Shown: positions 21,101 through 39,700 of the stretch, piece after piece
Numbering within the stretch: the stretch's first letter is position 1
How the letters are laid out: the number at the start of each line of letters is the position of its first letter
Assembly (NCBI RefSeq): GCF_963853765.1
Contig: NC_088859.1
Location: 36,084,001-36,148,000, forward strand
Direction of reading: 5' to 3'
Source: Magallana gigas
Lineage: Eukaryota
DNA: 64,000 nt
Made by a program: the position numbers

Positions 21101-24100
21101 AAATTTGGAGACAATTTTTTTGGACCCCCCAGCCTCCTTTAGTAAATTTACGGATACCTTTCGGAATTTTTAGAATCTCTTATGACATAAAAATATCGAT
21201 CTGTCGAATCGTCAGTGATTCAAAACTTGATTATTATATGCTCATGACTTGTTCCTTTTATCTTACAAGAGGCCTACGGGCTAATTCGCTCAACAGATCG
21301 ACACTCTACAACTCTTTTTCCATTTTACTTTTATATATTTAACGATTGCTTTTTATTCATAATTTTTTTTCTTATAGTACCACCATTTTATAGTAACACC
21401 GGCAATTTGTCGAAATATTCAGAAATTCTGCTCAAGCAAGGACGTCTTATAAAAATTAAAAAATTAAAAAGAACACATACGCAACATTAAAACAAAACAA
21501 AGCAAAATTTAAAAAACCAGAAACTCTACTTTATTCAATGAAAAATAACATCACGTTTTACTGTTTAATTTTATAAGTTTCAAAAATGCAAATGTTTATA
21601 AAATTGAAAATCGTAAATACAATTCAAGGGCAAAACACACAANNNNNNNNNNNNNNNNNNNNNNNNNNNNNNNNNNNNNNNNNNNNNNNNNNNNNNNNNN
21701 NNNNNNNNNNNNNNNNNNNNNNNNNNNNNNNNNNNNNNNNNNNNNNNNNNNNNNNNNNNNNNNNNNNNNNNNTATTTTGATAAAATTAGCTTGATGCTAG
21801 AGTCGGGCTACATCAAGTATTCCTTTCACTGTCTTGCGTGTTTTCGTCATAATTCTCAGACTCTAAATTGTTATAATTCGGATTTTCACCAAATTGTTGA
21901 ACTAGATCAATGTTATCAGTGGCTTGCCTTTCTTTTCTGTATCTATACAAGTATATGCCGCCCACACCAATCGCCAACCCAACGATAAATAGAGCTATAG
22001 ATGCTCCGGCCAATGAGCCTAAAGCAAAGAAAATTAAAAAAAAATTAGACAAGGAAATCTTAGGATACTATGAATTTTTTAAGCTAAAAAATTTAAAGAA
22101 TTATTCTCAAACAGTAAAATTTTGTTCAATAACTGCAGTCTAGTACCTCCGCTATAGCCATTATTAGGTTGGCTTGACCTCCTGCCTTGAATTTTACTTG
22201 GTTGAGAATACGATGACGGCTGGTAAAAATTTCCTACAAACAATTAATAAAAGGGGAAAATATTGTATGTTGAGAGCTTGATTCATGTAAAACACCATCC
22301 ATATCATAAATATTTTTGTTGGAATTCAAAAATTACATGTATCACGTAGAATTAATTATGTGTATGCTCATTACACAGTAATTTACGTGAAGCACAATCA
22401 TGGCTTTTTGATAACAACAATCAATCATTTTTAAAAATTGCAAAAATCTGAATACAAGTTTTATTCGCAAAACCTTACTTGAATATAAGTCACACATGTC
22501 GCTCTTAGAAACAGCGTTTCCAGACTGAAACGGATGAGATGATGTCAGTCTACACAATGACGTCATATTGCAATATGCAAAGCTCCTGCAGGCTGCTCCT
22601 TCCTGTTCCACACATAGTTTGGCGCACTGGGAACTGGTGATATTCGAAAATTCCACAACGTTTGTAAACGATATTGTCATCCTTTTTAACAACTTGAAGT
22701 CATAGAAATAGTTCTCTAAAAAATAAAAGAAGAAATATATCGAAGAACTGTCAGACCAAGTTTGGCAATGTGTTTGGTATACACGAGAAGAACACTGAAA
22801 AGGCAAGTATAGTCATTTCCTTATCTACATATACTCACTGCTGTAAAAGGAGCATGTAAGACTCTTTGAAGCTGTTTTTCCCACCATATCAAGTTCATGC
22901 ATCTTCAACAGGAGACAGTTTTTGGTACTTGTACAGTATTCAAAAGATTTGCACTGAAATGCAGTATATTGTGAGCAAAGCTTTGCACAAAGGTTTGCGG
23001 ATGGCACATTGGGGAGTGTTGCGTCAGCCTTTACTGAATACGTCAAACCAGAGGATTCTGTGTACTGATCAAGAAAATAACCTGTGAAAAGTAAGAAGAT
23101 CCATTTTATCACGAGCTTGGACTTGGGTAGTTATCAAACAGCAAAGTGACGTAGGTCTGTCTATTTCATTGTTGACTACTCAGCCATAGCTCTTTGAAAT
23201 CAACAAGATTTGACTGGCTTTTGAGCTTTAACTACGCAATCGGTGCATGTTTTGCTTAAACCAGGGTAATTTTATACGAAAATGCCAAAATATAAGATCG
23301 TTACGTCCTATCGAAAGTACAAGGCCTTGTTAAAATGGATCTTAATCAAAATCTTAGAAAGTCCAGAGACTTCAATTATTGAATTTTCCAGATAAGGGGA
23401 TTTGAATAACGTGACTTACGTGAGTACAAATCACAGTATTCCTGACGTTGTACAATTCCAGAGGAGTTGTCCGCATGGACGTGGCTAAGGAAGCAATCAC
23501 CAAGGTCAAAACAGTAACTAAACGATAGGCACTCGTACTCCATGTTGTTTATACAGCGGCGCGCGCAGTCCTCAACCGACAACCCAGCAATGGAAGTGTC
23601 GGTATTGGTAAAAATAAAGTATTGGCGATAGATGTAGAAATGTGTCAGAAGTAGATCTAAAACAGAGGGGAAATACATTATAATGCTTTTTTTCTAAAGA
23701 TTTAAACTATTTCACGACAATCTGATCCAGTACATTTTGATTTCACATATCAATTTATATTTTAAGTTTCAGAAATTATCTCCCAAAAGATCTTTTACAA
23801 CCAATTTGAAAAAAGTATGAACACTATCTATGCATCAGTTGTATCAATAAATTACTTGATTCACTTGGTCTTCCGTTTCTTAGAATACGTGTCCTAATAT
23901 TCGTTGCGTTAAATGTCTGAAATTATAAACAAAAAACCACTTCTTACCAAAACTATCTGTAGCATGGCATGTTATGAAATGTTCTTAATCAGTTTATGTC
24001 ATTCTAGGATTTCAGAATACGAAATACTTAGCCAACTTTCTGTTGCAGCTGTCCATATTTCTTGAAGAGAAATACTAATATATGTCCTAGTAGTTGTTTT

Positions 24101-36727: not shown

Positions 36728-39700
36728 TGAAGTAATACAGCATAAACAAGTTTTTCTCGGATCTGCAATTGGTATCTTGTACAAGTAAGGATTACCATGA
36801 ATATAAAAAAGCTGATCGTTGGCGTAGTCATACACCAATGTGTCTGGGGTGTTGCCAGCTGCGGTCATGATGAGAGTGGCCCTGTTATTCCTGTTGTCGA
36901 AATATTCCTCCGCGGACACGGTCATTTTCTTATCTACGATGGTGGCCTCCACTCGACTTTGAAAAGTGTCCGGTAATGTTGGGAAAGGTGGTTCTAAAAT
37001 AAATCAATAAGTGCCTGTAATGACCATATCTATGGGGACCCGACGAGTGGTTGTTCGTGGTCAGACCAAAATTGAACGAAGGCTTTAATAAATCTGAAAT
37101 TTCTTCTTTTATTGTAGACTCACCATTTGGACGTGGAGCGCTGGTTGTATTAGGTAAACAGTAAGGACTAGCTTCAGTCTTCAAGATAAGTATTGAAGCG
37201 AAAAATGTCCACAGAGGCTAGAAAAAATAAGGAAGAAGAAAAGTTGTACGTCTTGGACGGAATTCAGTTTTATTTTAGTGTTGTACAAGCATTAATTTCA
37301 TAGTTATAACCGGGTTTTCCGAAGGTAAAATCCAGTTATTGAAATGGTGAAAATGGCGGGCGGGCTGCTGCCAAAAGAGGGTACCCTTATTGTGCGGACA
37401 ACTCCTCCTACAGTTTTTAAGATAGGAAATTGTTCTTTTGCAGATCAACTGTACATATATTAGAGGTGTGCATATTGCTAGGGTTTTGATTTCTGATAAT
37501 TTATGAAAAAACTTATTTCTGTTTTTGGCAAAAAATATTTCATATATACATGTAGTGCCCCAGTTCTCTTGATAGGTTGTGGTCATCAATTCAGGGGTGA
37601 CAAATGGATTATGCATACTGTTCACACAAAAGAAAACCCGGTTTGCTGTCACATTGACAGCTTTTCTCTTATTAATAAGTTAATTTTTGTTTATAAACCA
37701 CTTGGTGCACTACGATTGCAGTATGATATGCTTAGGTTTATTTATATGTGTCTGTATAGTCTATCTATGTATCAATGCAGAATGTTTCACGTGGTATTAA
37801 GCATGTGAAATTATATCTTTACTCGATCGCCTAGCTTACCTTATGATATTTATACACTCATACACTGTATGGATAAAAATCGGGAATGCAGCTTTATCAA
37901 CATAATATCTTAAGTTCATATAATGCGTCTTACTTCTAAGATATTTCCTTTCTCATTGAAAACTCTTGTGGGTTTTATGTAAAATGACATTATTTTCGAC
38001 GACGTAGTTTCTGAGTTGTATAAATATTAACTTCTAGTATGCAAATGCAAATTTATCAGTAACAACAGCAGTTCAATATATGGTACAAAGATGGACAGGC
38101 AGATGGTTAAGGTGACAGCAAATGTCCCAAATTATTTAAACACATTTTTACAATTTACCGTTCATGATATCCTATTCCATATAACTGCATTCAAATAATC
38201 TTCATAAAATTACTTTGTCATTACATATTTTAAATACTACAGTAAAATTTTATATTCACATGTATGACATTTGAACATGTCATATAAAAGTTCAATCAAT
38301 CGGGCGTCTTTTTAATAGTAAGTATTGGCTTTAATTAACTCCGTAAGGAAAATTCTTACATAACACATTGTTGATGTTTGAACTTTAAATAAGACCTGAC
38401 CCATAGGTTTAATCTATCCAAGTGCTGACTGTGACTCCTGCATACATCTTTTATTCACAATTAATAAATGAAAAATAGATTTATTCCTACCTTCATCTTA
38501 AAGAAATCAATTTCTTATTCCCTGATTAATCCAGTGACATAATTTACCCCGGTCACAATCAAGGAGTTTTTTCTGCACGTTGGAGTTAGCCCGGGTAATC
38601 TTATCAGCCCTGTATCATTGTATTTCATCTCTATGTTATCCTCAAACAAATATTTAAACTTAAGTAAACAGATGTGGTCTGGAGGGGTTTTTTTCTACTC
38701 ACGTTTATATCATCACTGTTTAAGGAAATTAACATGATTAGATGATGAACTATCAATATAAGGTAAATAATATTACGAATAATTGATTATTTTACACAAG
38801 ATATGTACAATCTTTATTCTTTGAAATGAAATTATGCATGTAATAAGGACTAAAAACTATTTTAAAAGCTTTTTACATGTATGGGTATAAAATTATAATA
38901 TAAAGAAATGAAATAAAAGCATCAATTGACACATACATGTATGTAAAATGTCATAAAGATTCTGTATCTATGCACGTGTTCAAATATACCATCAAGCATG
39001 CACATCCACACTTCAAAAGCTATTAATACATTTGTAAGAGATCTCTGATCCATAGTCACTTGAAATCTTCTTTCAAAGTACATCTATTGCACGACTGGTT
39101 CTTCATCTTTGTTCCAGCGGAGGAATCTTGTTTGACACAGTTATCGCGCTTTGCTCCACTTCCGGTCCTCTTCACTCCTGGTGTGTGTCTGAGAACGCAG
39201 TATTTACGATGTATGTGGTCTTAGAATAGTCCGTATCCTCGTCCTCTACAGTATAAAGACCGTTTGAGTTTTTCTCCATCACAGGTTCCTTAGAAAAGTG
39301 TTCCTTGTCGAACCCATTCACCTGTTTGGGATCCTGTTTCAGCGTTCTTGATTGACGATGACTGGAAATCAAAGTTTAGGAAACCATAAGACATAAGACA
39401 GAAAATGAATACGTTGAGAAAAATCGTTTTGTTTTGATTGAGAAAAGTTTGATAATCAATTAAGTATACCTTCTTGCTCGCAGAGCCGTGATCAGAAGAG
39501 TGAGCAACAGAATCACTAAGGCTAGACACCCGATCCCTATCACTAAGTACACCCACCATTCCTGGGGACAGAAACAAGTTCTATAAACTCAATTTAAATA
39601 TTTCTGAATTTTCTGTTTAAGATTTTCAATACATGTAATCACCTATTAAGACGAAATCATTTATTGCTCCGCTAAAATTTAACATTTCCACCGCGAATGA

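What the first reader, a model, noticed from the sequence alone, without database searches (positions are those of the whole stretch)
21813..37301. Large ependymin/LolA-like + PAN/apple membrane receptor with an NPxY tail
Seen: three LolA/ependymin-like units, two SPLR/SAIR-containing SEA-like linkers, five PAN domains, a TM and FGENPNY. Known: ependymin-related proteins adopt a LolA-like lipid-binding fold and are usually small soluble lysosomal proteins; PAN domains bind proteins or glycans; NPxY drives clathrin/PTB-adaptor endocytosis. Inference: a scavenger-type receptor that captures and internalises lipids or glycolipids. I know of no functional description for this architecture in molluscs.
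Basis: partly seen in the sequence, partly recalled or inferred. Interest (0 to 1): 0.66.

Follow-up and report, generated by a model that had tools for sequence, protein, structure and literature searches.

The report
Five-PAN membrane receptor, possible ependymin-like units
An animal gene appears to encode a large cell-surface protein with five PAN/apple binding domains, an internalisation-type tail motif and three beta-rich units, one of which looks like the lipid-binding ependymin fold; no such combination turned up in the literature searched here, but this is only partly shown.

Summary
The anatomy is largely real. On the minus strand, 37301-21813, 27 GT-AG exons with continuous phase encode about 1,315 aa. 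The order is signal peptide, three beta-rich units, two short paralogous linkers, five PAN_1 domains, stalk, TM helix and a 43-aa tail with NPNY overlapping YNNL.

All five PAN domains exceed Pfam's gathering score and match plasminogen/HGF PAN domains. Units 2 and 3 are clear paralogues. Unit 1 is tied to them only weakly.

"SEA-like" is not supported.

"Ependymin/LolA-like" gets no exon-level sequence support: 0 of 16 unit exons in Pfam and 0 of 5 PDB sequence searches. One structural test is positive. The 65-aa first exon of unit 1 folds as a five-strand beta-meander (pLDDT 85.9), and its best PDB match is an ependymin-related protein, with 8 of 36 listed rows being EPDRs. The best E-value is only 0.021.

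Lipid capture and endocytosis remain inference.

Verdict: partly supported, a new variant of known kinds, moderate interest.

The parts
37287..37301 (-). Exon 1: ATG plus 4 codons (n-region of the signal peptide), GT donor, 69-nt intron
37124..37217 (-). Exon 2: hydrophobic core of the signal peptide, then the first Cys (SPYC) and an NTT sequon
35596..36993 (-). Unit 1, four exons: 36993-36796, 36171-36041, 35951-35843, 35756-35596. Its last 7 codons, ending in Cys, lie in the next exon at 35489-35469. The first exon folds as a five-strand beta-meander with EPDR as best PDB match
33302..35489 (-). Unit 2, six exons: 35489-35361, 35008-34897, 34714-34524, 34182-34072, 33809-33726, 33437-33302
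33018..33182 (-). Linker 1 (contains SAIR): predicted helix plus beta-hairpin, paralogous to linker 2, not SEA
32631..32855 (-). PAN domain 1 (phase 1-1 exon)
25732..31984 (-). Unit 3, six exons: 31984-31920, 31759-31648, 26586-26408, 26301-26191, 26065-25985, 25855-25732. A 5,061-nt intron lies after the second exon
25447..25626 (-). Linker 2 (contains SPLR)
24892..25116 (-). PAN domain 2 (phase 1-1 exon)
24138..24260 (-). Possible 41-codon phase 1-1 cassette exon, partly S/T-rich, with AG and GT boundaries. Unverified and not counted in the 1,315 aa
23420..23656 (-). PAN domain 3
22839..23081 (-). PAN domain 4
22479..22715 (-). PAN domain 5
22147..22233 (-). S/Q/P-rich juxtamembrane stalk exon
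21813..22018 (-). Last exon: TM helix (about 22010-21945), basic stop-transfer residues, 43-aa acidic tail with FGENPNY (21893-21873) overlapping YNNL, then the stop codon at 21815-21813

Best explanation
This is one 27-exon gene for a type I membrane glycoprotein of about 1,315 aa.

Layout, N to C:
- signal peptide;
- two directly fused beta-rich units (1 and 2);
- a short alpha/beta linker, then PAN1;
- a third unit, a second linker, then PAN2;
- PAN3 to PAN5;
- a stalk, a TM helix and a 43-aa acidic tail in which NPNY overlaps YNNL.

Shown: the exon model's internal consistency, the five PAN domains, the TM helix, the tail motifs, and the paralogy of unit 2 + linker 1 + PAN1 with unit 3 + linker 2 + PAN2.

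Supported but not shown: the units are divergent members of the ependymin/LolA-type beta-sheet fold.

Inferred mechanism: the PAN domains dock the receptor to a protein or glycan partner. The units hold a hydrophobic cargo such as a lipid, glycolipid or carotenoid. The tail recruits PTB-domain and AP-2-type adaptors, so that the loaded receptor is internalised or sorted.
For: GENE MODEL
- All 26 introns are GT-AG, phase is continuous, no split codon is a stop, and the total is 3,948 nt.
- Every PAN exon is phase 1-1.

PAN
- 5 of 5 exceed the Pfam gathering score.
- The profile hits the plasminogen PAp domain at E 8e-7 and HGF N domains.

MODULE DUPLICATION
- U2 versus U3 exon pairs give z 17.2, 14.8, 5.7 and 13.1.
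- The two linkers are 30% identical.

EPDR-LIKE FOLD
- AlphaFold2 on the 65-aa exon U1e1 alone gave mean pLDDT 85.9, pTM 0.63 and five consecutive strands.
- Foldseek against the PDB ranked sponge EPD-BCP1 (8i34_B) first: E 0.021, prob 1.00, TMq 0.59.
- EPDR structures from 7 entries occupy 8 of the 36 listed rows, and a LolA3 is at rank 43.
- The Atlas placed a mollusc-dominated PF00811 cluster at rank 3 for the same exon.

SPACING (against human EPDR1 residues quoted in PMC6363788)
- D/N-x6-R is present in units 2 and 3, matching D70/R77.
- That D/N lies 45-46 residues before the first unit Cys; EPDR1 has 43.
- The next Cys-Cys gap is 59, 60 and 55 in the three units; EPDR1 C113-C172 is 59.
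- Unit 1 has four Cys, as in EPDR profile 1 (PMC6280359).

LIGANDS
- EPDR1 binds anionic lipid and ganglioside liposomes.
- EPD-BCP1 binds two carotenoids.

TAIL
- NPxY occurs in 1.3% and NPxYxxPhi in 0.15% of 200,000 shuffles of the 43-aa tail.
- The adaptor roles of NPxY and YxxPhi are established knowledge (recalled).
Against: SEQUENCE
- No Pfam Ependymin or LolA-clan hit on 27 exon ORFs at E <= 1.
- None on 16 trimmed unit exons at E <= 10.
- 5 of 5 PDB sequence searches with unit exons or exon profiles gave only chance hits at E > 1, and none was EPDR1.
- The second Atlas query (U2e3) gave no usable hit.

STRUCTURE
- Foldseek found 0 matches at E <= 0.001.
- Unrelated beta-meanders score alongside: mu-crystallin/ornithine cyclodeaminase family with TMq up to 0.66, and SAUGI.
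- Only 2 of the 5 AlphaFold models were confident.
- Only one exon of one unit could be folded.

DEPARTURES FROM THE EPDR PATTERN
- The last Cys-Cys gap is 78-88 residues against 38 in EPDR1.
- Units 2 and 3 lack the first conserved Cys, and unit 3 has an odd number of Cys.
- The conserved Pro two residues after the third Cys is absent.
- In the three-row alignment, unit 1's third Cys does not align with that of units 2 and 3.

OTHER
- Unit 1's kinship to units 2 and 3 is weak.
- F is at -6 from the Tyr, not -5.
- There is no transcript evidence, no orthologues and no ligand or trafficking data.
Confidence: 0.4

Rival explanations
1. Adhesion or signalling receptor. The five PAN domains and the units bind proteins or glycans on matrix, microbes or other cells. 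The NPNY/YNNL tail serves as a docking site for PTB/SH2 or FERM adaptors for signalling or cytoskeletal linkage, not for cargo uptake. No lipid is carried.
For: - PAN is the only domain identified with statistical confidence. Its closest solved relatives, the plasminogen and HGF N domains, mediate protein and glycosaminoglycan binding (recalled).
- NPxY also serves integrin-talin and Shc-type docking, and Y-x-N fits the Grb2 SH2 preference (recalled).
- F is at -6, not at the -5 of the classical endocytic signal (for the sequence).
- There is no positive evidence for any lipid ligand.
Against: - The EPDR-like structural match of U1e1 points to a fold that binds hydrophobic ligands in the two characterised cases read here.
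- NPxY overlapping YxxPhi, followed by an acidic stretch, is a typical sorting-signal arrangement (recalled).
Confidence: 0.3
2. The units are a lineage-specific beta-rich domain unrelated to EPDR/LolA. The resemblance is that of any antiparallel beta-meander, plus coincidental spacings.
For: - All exon-level sequence tests were negative.
- The Foldseek E-values are 0.02-0.3, and unrelated folds appear at equal or better TMq.
- The Atlas score of 0.76 is below the tool's 0.9 line, and an unrelated plant family ranked first.
- The C-terminal Cys gap is 40-50 residues too long, and units 2 and 3 lack the first Cys.
Against:
- The same family appeared independently in the Atlas for that exon.
- Three spacings agree with EPDR1 to within 4 residues.
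- Pfam and PDB sequence tests on 21-65-aa fragments of a family with 'very little sequence similarity' outside a few residues have little power.
Confidence: 0.3
3. Mis-merged locus: two or three separate secreted EPDR-like genes next to a PAN/TM gene, wrongly read as one. Multi-ependymin gene models were judged to be errors in sponge and amphioxus genomes.
For: PMC6280359 treats models with 'multiple ependymin domains' as incorrect (passages). No RNA evidence is available here.
Against: - The last 7 codons of unit 1 and the start of unit 2 are in one exon (35489-35361).
- Units 2 and 3 have no in-frame ATG or signal peptide at their starts.
- Phase is continuous through all 27 exons, and PAN1 sits between units 2 and 3 in phase.
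- Only one signal peptide and one TM segment are present.
Confidence: 0.07

Closest known systems
Ependymin-related proteins (EPDR1/MERP, fish ependymins, sponge EPD-BCP1; Pfam PF00811; LolA-type fold, CATH 2.50.20)
   Same: - Best structural match of the one unit exon that could be folded.
- Beta-rich, N-glycosylation sequons in every unit, and a D/N-x6-R pair.
- Two Cys spacings close to EPDR1.
- Unit length of about 210-235 aa against a median of 213.
   Different: - Known EPDRs are described as secreted, single-domain proteins of about 200 aa that form non-covalent dimers. Here up to three units sit in one membrane-anchored chain together with PAN domains.
- No sequence-level match at exon level.
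- The first conserved Cys is missing in units 2 and 3.
- The last Cys interval is 40-50 residues longer.
- The conserved Pro is absent.
PAN/apple domains of plasminogen (PAp) and hepatocyte growth factor (N domain); Pfam PF00024
   Same: All five domains pass the gathering score. The four core Cys align with those of plasminogen and HGF.
   Different: - Here there are five copies, each on a phase 1-1 exon, with an extra conserved Cys pair (six invariant Cys).
- They sit in a membrane receptor, with no kringle or protease domains.
LDL-receptor-type endocytic receptors (FxNPxY tail signal read by Dab2/ARH PTB domains)
   Same: Type I topology, large modular ectodomain, and a short tail with NPxY.
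   Different: - No LDLa, EGF or YWTD domains were found in any exon.
- F is at -6, not -5.
- Adaptor binding is untested.
SEA domain (Pfam PF01390)
   Same: Position between ectodomain modules, and mixed alpha/beta content: a predicted helix plus hairpin.
   Different: - About 55-65 aa, against roughly 110-120 for SEA (recalled).
- No Pfam, PDB-sequence or fold match.
- No G-S-V-V-V-type cleavage motif (recalled motif; sequences).

Membership tests
Ependymin / EPDR (PF00811) | Match to the family profile above the gathering score | tested here: inconclusive
0 of 16 trimmed unit exons hit at E <= 10, and 0 of 27 exon ORFs at E <= 1. Only fragments of 21-65 aa could be tested.
Ependymin / EPDR (PF00811) | Conserved Cys at alignment positions 23, 94 and 186 (plus 148 in profile 1). 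In EPDR1 these are C42, C113, C172 and C210, with gaps of 71, 59 and 38 | tested here: inconclusive
   Unit 1 has four Cys with gaps of 81, 59 and 78. Unit 2 has gaps of 60 and 88 and no first Cys. Unit 3 has gaps of 55 and 83, no first Cys, and three Cys in all. The middle gap fits; the last gap does not.
Ependymin / EPDR (PF00811) | Secreted single-domain protein of about 200 aa with its own signal peptide | tested here: not met
   There is one signal peptide for the whole chain, a TM anchor, and up to three units plus five PAN domains in about 1,315 aa. For this reason it is not filed as an ordinary EPDR.
LolA/EPDR fold superfamily (CATH 2.50.20) | Eleven-stranded twisted antiparallel beta-sheet (shelf I strands 1-6, shelf II strands 7-11) enclosing a hydrophobic groove | tested here: inconclusive
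   Only the first 65-aa exon of unit 1 could be folded. It gives five strands at pLDDT 85.9. Its top PDB match is EPD-BCP1 at E 0.021; 8 of 36 listed rows are EPDRs and LolA3 is at rank 43; 0 hits reach E <= 0.001. Strands 6-11 and the groove were not tested.
LolA/EPDR fold superfamily (CATH 2.50.20) | Conserved Asp/Arg pair (EPDR1 D70/R77, VioE D38/R45) | tested here: inconclusive
   Unit 3 has D-x6-R, unit 2 has N-x6-R, and unit 1 has D-x4-R only (residues). Equivalence rests on position, not on an alignment to an EPDR.
PAN/apple (PF00024) | Profile match above gathering, and the core disulfide Cys pattern | tested here: met
   5 of 5 domains score 28.7-36.0 bits against a 21.4 cut-off. Six Cys are invariant. 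Alignment to plasminogen and HGF covers the four core Cys.
SEA (PF01390) | Profile match; ferredoxin-like fold of about 110-120 aa; often a G|SVVV autoproteolysis site (size and motif recalled) | tested here: not met
   No Pfam hit at E <= 10. No PDB sequence hit. The model is a helix plus hairpin of 54 aa with no SEA among the listed fold matches, best E 1.2. No such motif is in either linker.
NPxY-dependent endocytic receptors | Cytoplasmic NPxY, classically Phi-x-N-P-x-Y, bound by PTB adaptors | tested here: inconclusive
   NPNY is present and occurs in 1.3% of shuffles. F is at -6, not -5. YNNL overlaps it. Adaptor binding and internalisation cannot be tested with these tools.
Scavenger receptors (SRCR, CD36, collagenous classes) | A class-defining domain | tested here: not met
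   No such Pfam domain was found in any exon ORF. 'Scavenger-type' can only be a functional analogy.

The most novel reading that the evidence does not exclude
This is a membrane-anchored, multi-copy EPDR. Units 1 and 2, fused head to tail within one exon, would form a covalent pseudo-dimer that mimics the EPDR1 homodimer or the EPD-BCP1 heterodimer and clamps a hydrophobic cargo (carotenoid, glycolipid or sterol) at or near its interface. The five PAN domains would tether the receptor to a carrier or food-derived particle, and the NPxY/YxxPhi tail would drive uptake. That would make it the first EPDR-family protein acting as a cargo-internalising receptor, and a candidate route for carotenoid or lipid uptake in a marine invertebrate.
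Probability: 0.15. Interest if true: 0.7.

Novelty: new variant of a known kind. Interest (0 to 1): 0.5.

Why it matters
EPDRs are widespread, yet their function is still poorly understood. The papers read here describe them as small secreted dimers that bind lipids or carotenoids, and multi-ependymin gene models were set aside there as annotation errors.

A real single-chain protein that puts several EPDR-like units on a PAN-rich, NPxY-tailed membrane anchor would show that the fold has been recruited into a receptor. It would give a concrete, testable handle on what EPDR domains pick up and where the cargo goes.

If the units are not EPDR-like, the gene is still a well-defined five-PAN receptor carrying a new, duplicated domain of about 220 aa.

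Tried and rejected
LED NOWHERE
- Exon-level Pfam: at E <= 1, and at E <= 10. Nothing beyond PAN.
- PDB sequence searches with unit exons or exon-pair/triple profiles. Only chance hits at E > 1.
- Linker profile against PDB sequences and the linker model against PDB folds. Nothing.
- Second Atlas query, on U2e3. No usable hit.
- hhalign of U1e2 and U1e1 against unit-2/3 profiles. Probabilities below 1%.
- tblastn of all exons against the window, looking for extra paralogues to deepen the profiles. 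None found. The weak tail-like hit at 45439-45341 lies in the S/T-rich part of the neighbouring EGF gene. The weak PAN3-like hit at 1052-1114 (E 0.003) was not pursued.
- The ORF at 31080-31307, first taken as a possible exon, is an interspersed repeat.
- ORFs 35842-36036 and 25911-26087, first taken as exons, were replaced by exons in other frames.

LITERATURE SEARCHES
- 'ependymin' + 'apple domain': 0 papers.
- 'ependymin domain' + 'transmembrane' + 'PAN': 1 irrelevant paper.
- 'ependymin' + 'six exons': 0 papers. My recollection that fish ependymin and MERP genes have six exons therefore stays unverified and is not used.
- One search was poorly framed: no listed paper held 'PAN apple'.
- One search was a term-format error, corrected.

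NOT DONE
- Joining exons for a Pfam, HHpred or AlphaFold test of a whole unit or the whole protein.
- Complex prediction was not used. Feeding exon pieces as chains would have amounted to the joined step, and no binding claim is made.
- Supplements of PMC6280359 were closed. Additional file 2, on mispredicted EPDR models, and the alignment files may bear on multi-domain models.

Full report
WHAT IS THERE

The feature lies on the minus strand. Stop-to-stop ORFs, splice-site and phase listings, three-frame views and a junction-by-junction audit give a model of 27 exons from the ATG at 37301 to the stop at 21815-21813.
- All 26 introns are GT-AG.
- Phase is continuous, no split codon is a stop, and there are no internal stops.
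- The total is 3,948 nt, about 1,315 aa.
- A further 41-codon phase 1-1 exon at 24260-24138 is possible but unverified.

There is no transcript evidence. Boundaries rest on consensus sites, phase and the agreement of paralogous exon ends. An N run at 21643-21772 begins 40 nt beyond the stop and was left as it is, so the 3' UTR cannot be read.

CHECKING THE OBSERVATION

Five PAN domains are confirmed.
- Each scores 28.7-36.0 bits against a gathering score of 21.4.
- Each occupies a phase 1-1 exon.
- Six Cys are invariant across the five.
- The five-row profile finds the plasminogen PAp domain (E 8e-7) and HGF N domains; 17 of 22 rows are plasminogen or HGF.

The N-terminus reads as a signal peptide split by a 69-nt intron.

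The last exon holds a strongly hydrophobic 19-residue stretch (Kyte-Doolittle mean 2.23), basic stop-transfer residues and a 43-aa acidic tail.
- FGENPNY lies at 21893-21873, and its Tyr also starts YNNL.
- In 200,000 composition-matched shuffles of the tail, NPxY appears in 1.3% and NPxYxxPhi in 0.15%.

THE UNITS

Units 2 and 3 are collinear six-exon paralogues. Shuffle tests give z 17.2, 14.8, 5.7 and 13.1 for four of the six exon pairs, p 0.033 for a fifth, and no signal for the sixth. The sixth pair still shares its first residues and its phase.

The two linkers that follow them are 30% identical, with SAIR and SPLR in register. Each linker is followed by a PAN exon. So a unit-linker-PAN module was duplicated.

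Unit 1 is much more divergent.
- Only U1e3 matches its partners: p 0.0045 against U2e4 and p 0.03 against U3e4. The best of 36 non-collinear controls reached z 2.8.
- U1e2 ends '...GQ|gt', as do U2e3 and U3e3.
- hhalign of two other unit-1 exons against unit-2/3 profiles was null.

'Three units' is therefore two firm units plus one tentative.

ONE GENE OR SEVERAL

PMC6280359 (passages) regarded multi-ependymin models as mis-merged tandem genes. That rival is unlikely here.
- The last seven codons of unit 1 and the start of unit 2 share the exon 35489-35361.
- Neither unit 2 nor unit 3 has its own ATG or signal peptide.
- PAN1 sits in phase between them.

The 5,061-nt intron inside unit 3 holds a 166-bp tandem array (28724-30638, 11.5 copies). 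It also holds an interspersed repeat with an 89%-identical copy at 60903-61246. It holds no hidden exons that tblastn could detect.

ARE THE UNITS EPENDYMIN/LolA-LIKE?

No whole unit or whole protein was sent to Pfam, the PDB, AlphaFold or the Atlas. That leaves the most direct test undone.

At exon level, sequence methods are uniformly negative.
- No Ependymin or LolA-clan hit on 27 exon ORFs at E <= 1.
- None on 16 trimmed unit exons at E <= 10.
- 5 of 5 PDB sequence searches with single exons or two- and three-row exon profiles returned only chance hits.

These tests have low power. The fragments are 21-65 aa, and the family shows 'very little sequence similarity' outside a few residues (PMC6280359, passages).

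The Atlas gave a mollusc-dominated PF00811 cluster at rank 3 (score 0.76) for U1e1. An unrelated plant family ranked first at 0.78, and the tool calls anything under 0.9 a lead only. A second query, with U2e3, gave nothing.

The one positive test is structural.
- AlphaFold2 on U1e1 alone, 65 aa with no alignment, gave mean pLDDT 85.9 and pTM 0.63. Only two of the five models were above 80.
- The model has five consecutive antiparallel strands.
- Foldseek against 350,542 PDB chains ranked the sponge ependymin-related carotenoprotein EPD-BCP1 first: 8i34_B, E 0.021, prob 1.00, TMq 0.59.
- Of the 36 rows listed, 8 are EPDR structures from 7 entries (8i34, 6e7o, 6jl9, 6jld, 6e8n, 6jla, 6l9x). A LolA3 is at rank 43.

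Against this:
- no match reaches E <= 0.001;
- the mu-crystallin/ornithine cyclodeaminase family (TMq up to 0.66) and SAUGI score alongside;
- a beta-meander is a common motif.

MEMBERSHIP CRITERIA FROM THE PAPERS

From PMC6363788 (passages): EPDR1 has disulfides C42-C172 and C113-C210 and a conserved D70/R77 pair. From PMC6280359 (passages; section 7 in full): Cys at alignment columns 23, 94 and 186, plus 148 in profile 1; Pro at column 150; median length 213.

Position arithmetic over the exons gives the following.

| Feature | Unit 1 | Unit 2 | Unit 3 | EPDR1 |
|---|---|---|---|---|
| D/N to R pair | D-x4-R | N-x6-R | D-x6-R | D70/R77 (x6) |
| That D/N to the next Cys | 37 | 46 | 45 | 43 |
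| Gap to the following Cys | 59 | 60 | 55 | 59 |
| Last Cys gap | 78 | 88 | 83 | 38 |
| First conserved Cys | present | absent | absent | C42 |

Further points:
- Unit 3 has three Cys in all.
- The Pro two residues after the third Cys is absent.
- In the three-row alignment, unit 1's third Cys is not in the column of the other two.

The pattern fits in the first two-thirds and departs in the last third. I put the chance that the units are divergent EPDR/LolA-fold domains at about 0.6. I do not file the protein as an ordinary EPDR, because the 'small secreted single-domain' definition is not met.

THE LINKERS

'SEA-like' is not supported.
- No SEA hit in Pfam.
- No PDB sequence hit.
- The AlphaFold model of linker 1, from a two-row alignment with pLDDT 67.2, is one helix plus a beta-hairpin.
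- Foldseek found 0 matches at E <= 0.001, and no SEA domain among the listed rows.
- The exon is 54-59 aa, about half a SEA domain (size recalled).

The model lacks whatever strand the preceding exon contributes, so the fold remains open. I describe it as a conserved alpha/beta linker of about 55-65 aa from no known family.

HOW IT MOST LIKELY WORKS

Shown: a type I membrane glycoprotein with a modular ectodomain, five PAN domains, and a tail carrying overlapping NPxY and YxxPhi motifs.

Inferred from established knowledge (recalled):
- PAN domains bind proteins or glycans.
- NPxY is read by PTB-domain adaptors and YxxPhi by AP-2.
- EPDR-fold proteins hold hydrophobic ligands. EPDR1 binds liposomes containing an anionic lipid or the ganglioside GM1. 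EPD-BCP1 binds two carotenoids at its heterodimer interface (passages including parts of the abstract).

The most likely reading is a binding receptor that is internalised or sorted with a hydrophobic cargo. Because EPDRs act as dimers, the head-to-tail fusion of units 1 and 2 may form a built-in pseudo-dimer. This is speculation and could not be tested without joining exons.

The main rival is an adhesion or signalling receptor in which NPxY is a docking site. F lies at -6, not the classical -5, and Y-x-N fits a Grb2-type site (both recalled).

WHAT IS KNOWN, AND NOVELTY

No paper in the searchable library combines ependymin with an apple domain (0 papers). 'Ependymin domain' with 'transmembrane' and 'PAN' returned 1 irrelevant paper. 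The EPDR survey and the two structure papers describe only small secreted proteins.

These searches cover open-access text only. Protein databases were closed, so I cannot say whether orthologues exist, are annotated, or keep the tail motif. Supplements of PMC6280359 that discuss mispredicted multi-domain models could not be seen.

On present evidence this is a new variant of known kinds: PAN receptor plus EPDR-like units. Interest is moderate (0.5). The architecture is unusual and testable, but the EPDR assignment rests on one exon-level structural match, and function is wholly inferred.

CONTEXT

The window is metazoan. On the minus strand the flanks carry:
- a Delta/Serrate-type ligand gene, with MNNL, DSL and EGF domains and a mucin-like region at 43.5-48.9 kb;
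- a CARD-domain ORF;
- three WAP-domain exons;
- a Med8-like ORF.

Rfam at gathering thresholds and tRNA scans found nothing in the window. 'Mollusc' was not verified by any search. The contig is not human.

Noticed in passing
window 28724-30638: A 166-bp tandem array, 11.5 copies with 97% matches, sits inside the 5,061-nt intron of unit 3. It creates many short minus-strand ORFs that are not exons.
   Followed up: partly
window 30958-31297 and 60903-61246: An interspersed repeat, 89% identical over 346 bp, in the same orientation. One copy is in the large intron; its ORF at 31080-31307 at first looked like an exon.
   Followed up: yes
window 32943-33016 and 36677-36723: GA/AG microsatellites (37 and 23.5 copies) lie in introns. 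The first is in frame, so linker 1 and PAN1 read as one 229-aa ORF with an SL-repeat insert.
   Followed up: partly
window 43561-48878 (-): The neighbouring gene is of the Delta/Serrate Notch-ligand type: MNNL (48591-48878), DSL (46238-46462), EGF repeats (45839-46099), and one 730-aa exon with EGF repeats and long S/T-rich mucin-like stretches.
   Followed up: partly
window 52732-53916 (-): A 395-aa ORF with an N-terminal CARD domain (E 4e-13). An N run at 52245-52377 lies nearby.
   Followed up: no
window 3683-3916, 7968-8201, 18895-19152 (-): Three ORFs with weak to moderate WAP four-disulfide-core matches (E 5e-4, 4e-6 and 9e-4). They are possibly exons of one or more WAP-domain genes.
   Followed up: no
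window 58706-59440 (-): An ORF with a Med8 (Mediator subunit 8) match, E 2e-11.
   Followed up: no
window 11595-11744 and 12457-12595: Two arrays with 21/63-bp periods whose consensus units are reverse complements of each other, about 700 bp apart. This is the layout expected for the inverted ends of a mobile element.
   Followed up: no
window 56148-57259: A second long tandem array: 164-bp period, 6.8 copies, 86% matches. It generates repeated minus-strand ORFs.
   Followed up: no
window 24138-24260 (-): A possible 41-codon phase 1-1 cassette exon between PAN2 and PAN3, partly S/T-rich, with AG and GT boundaries and no family match.
   Followed up: partly
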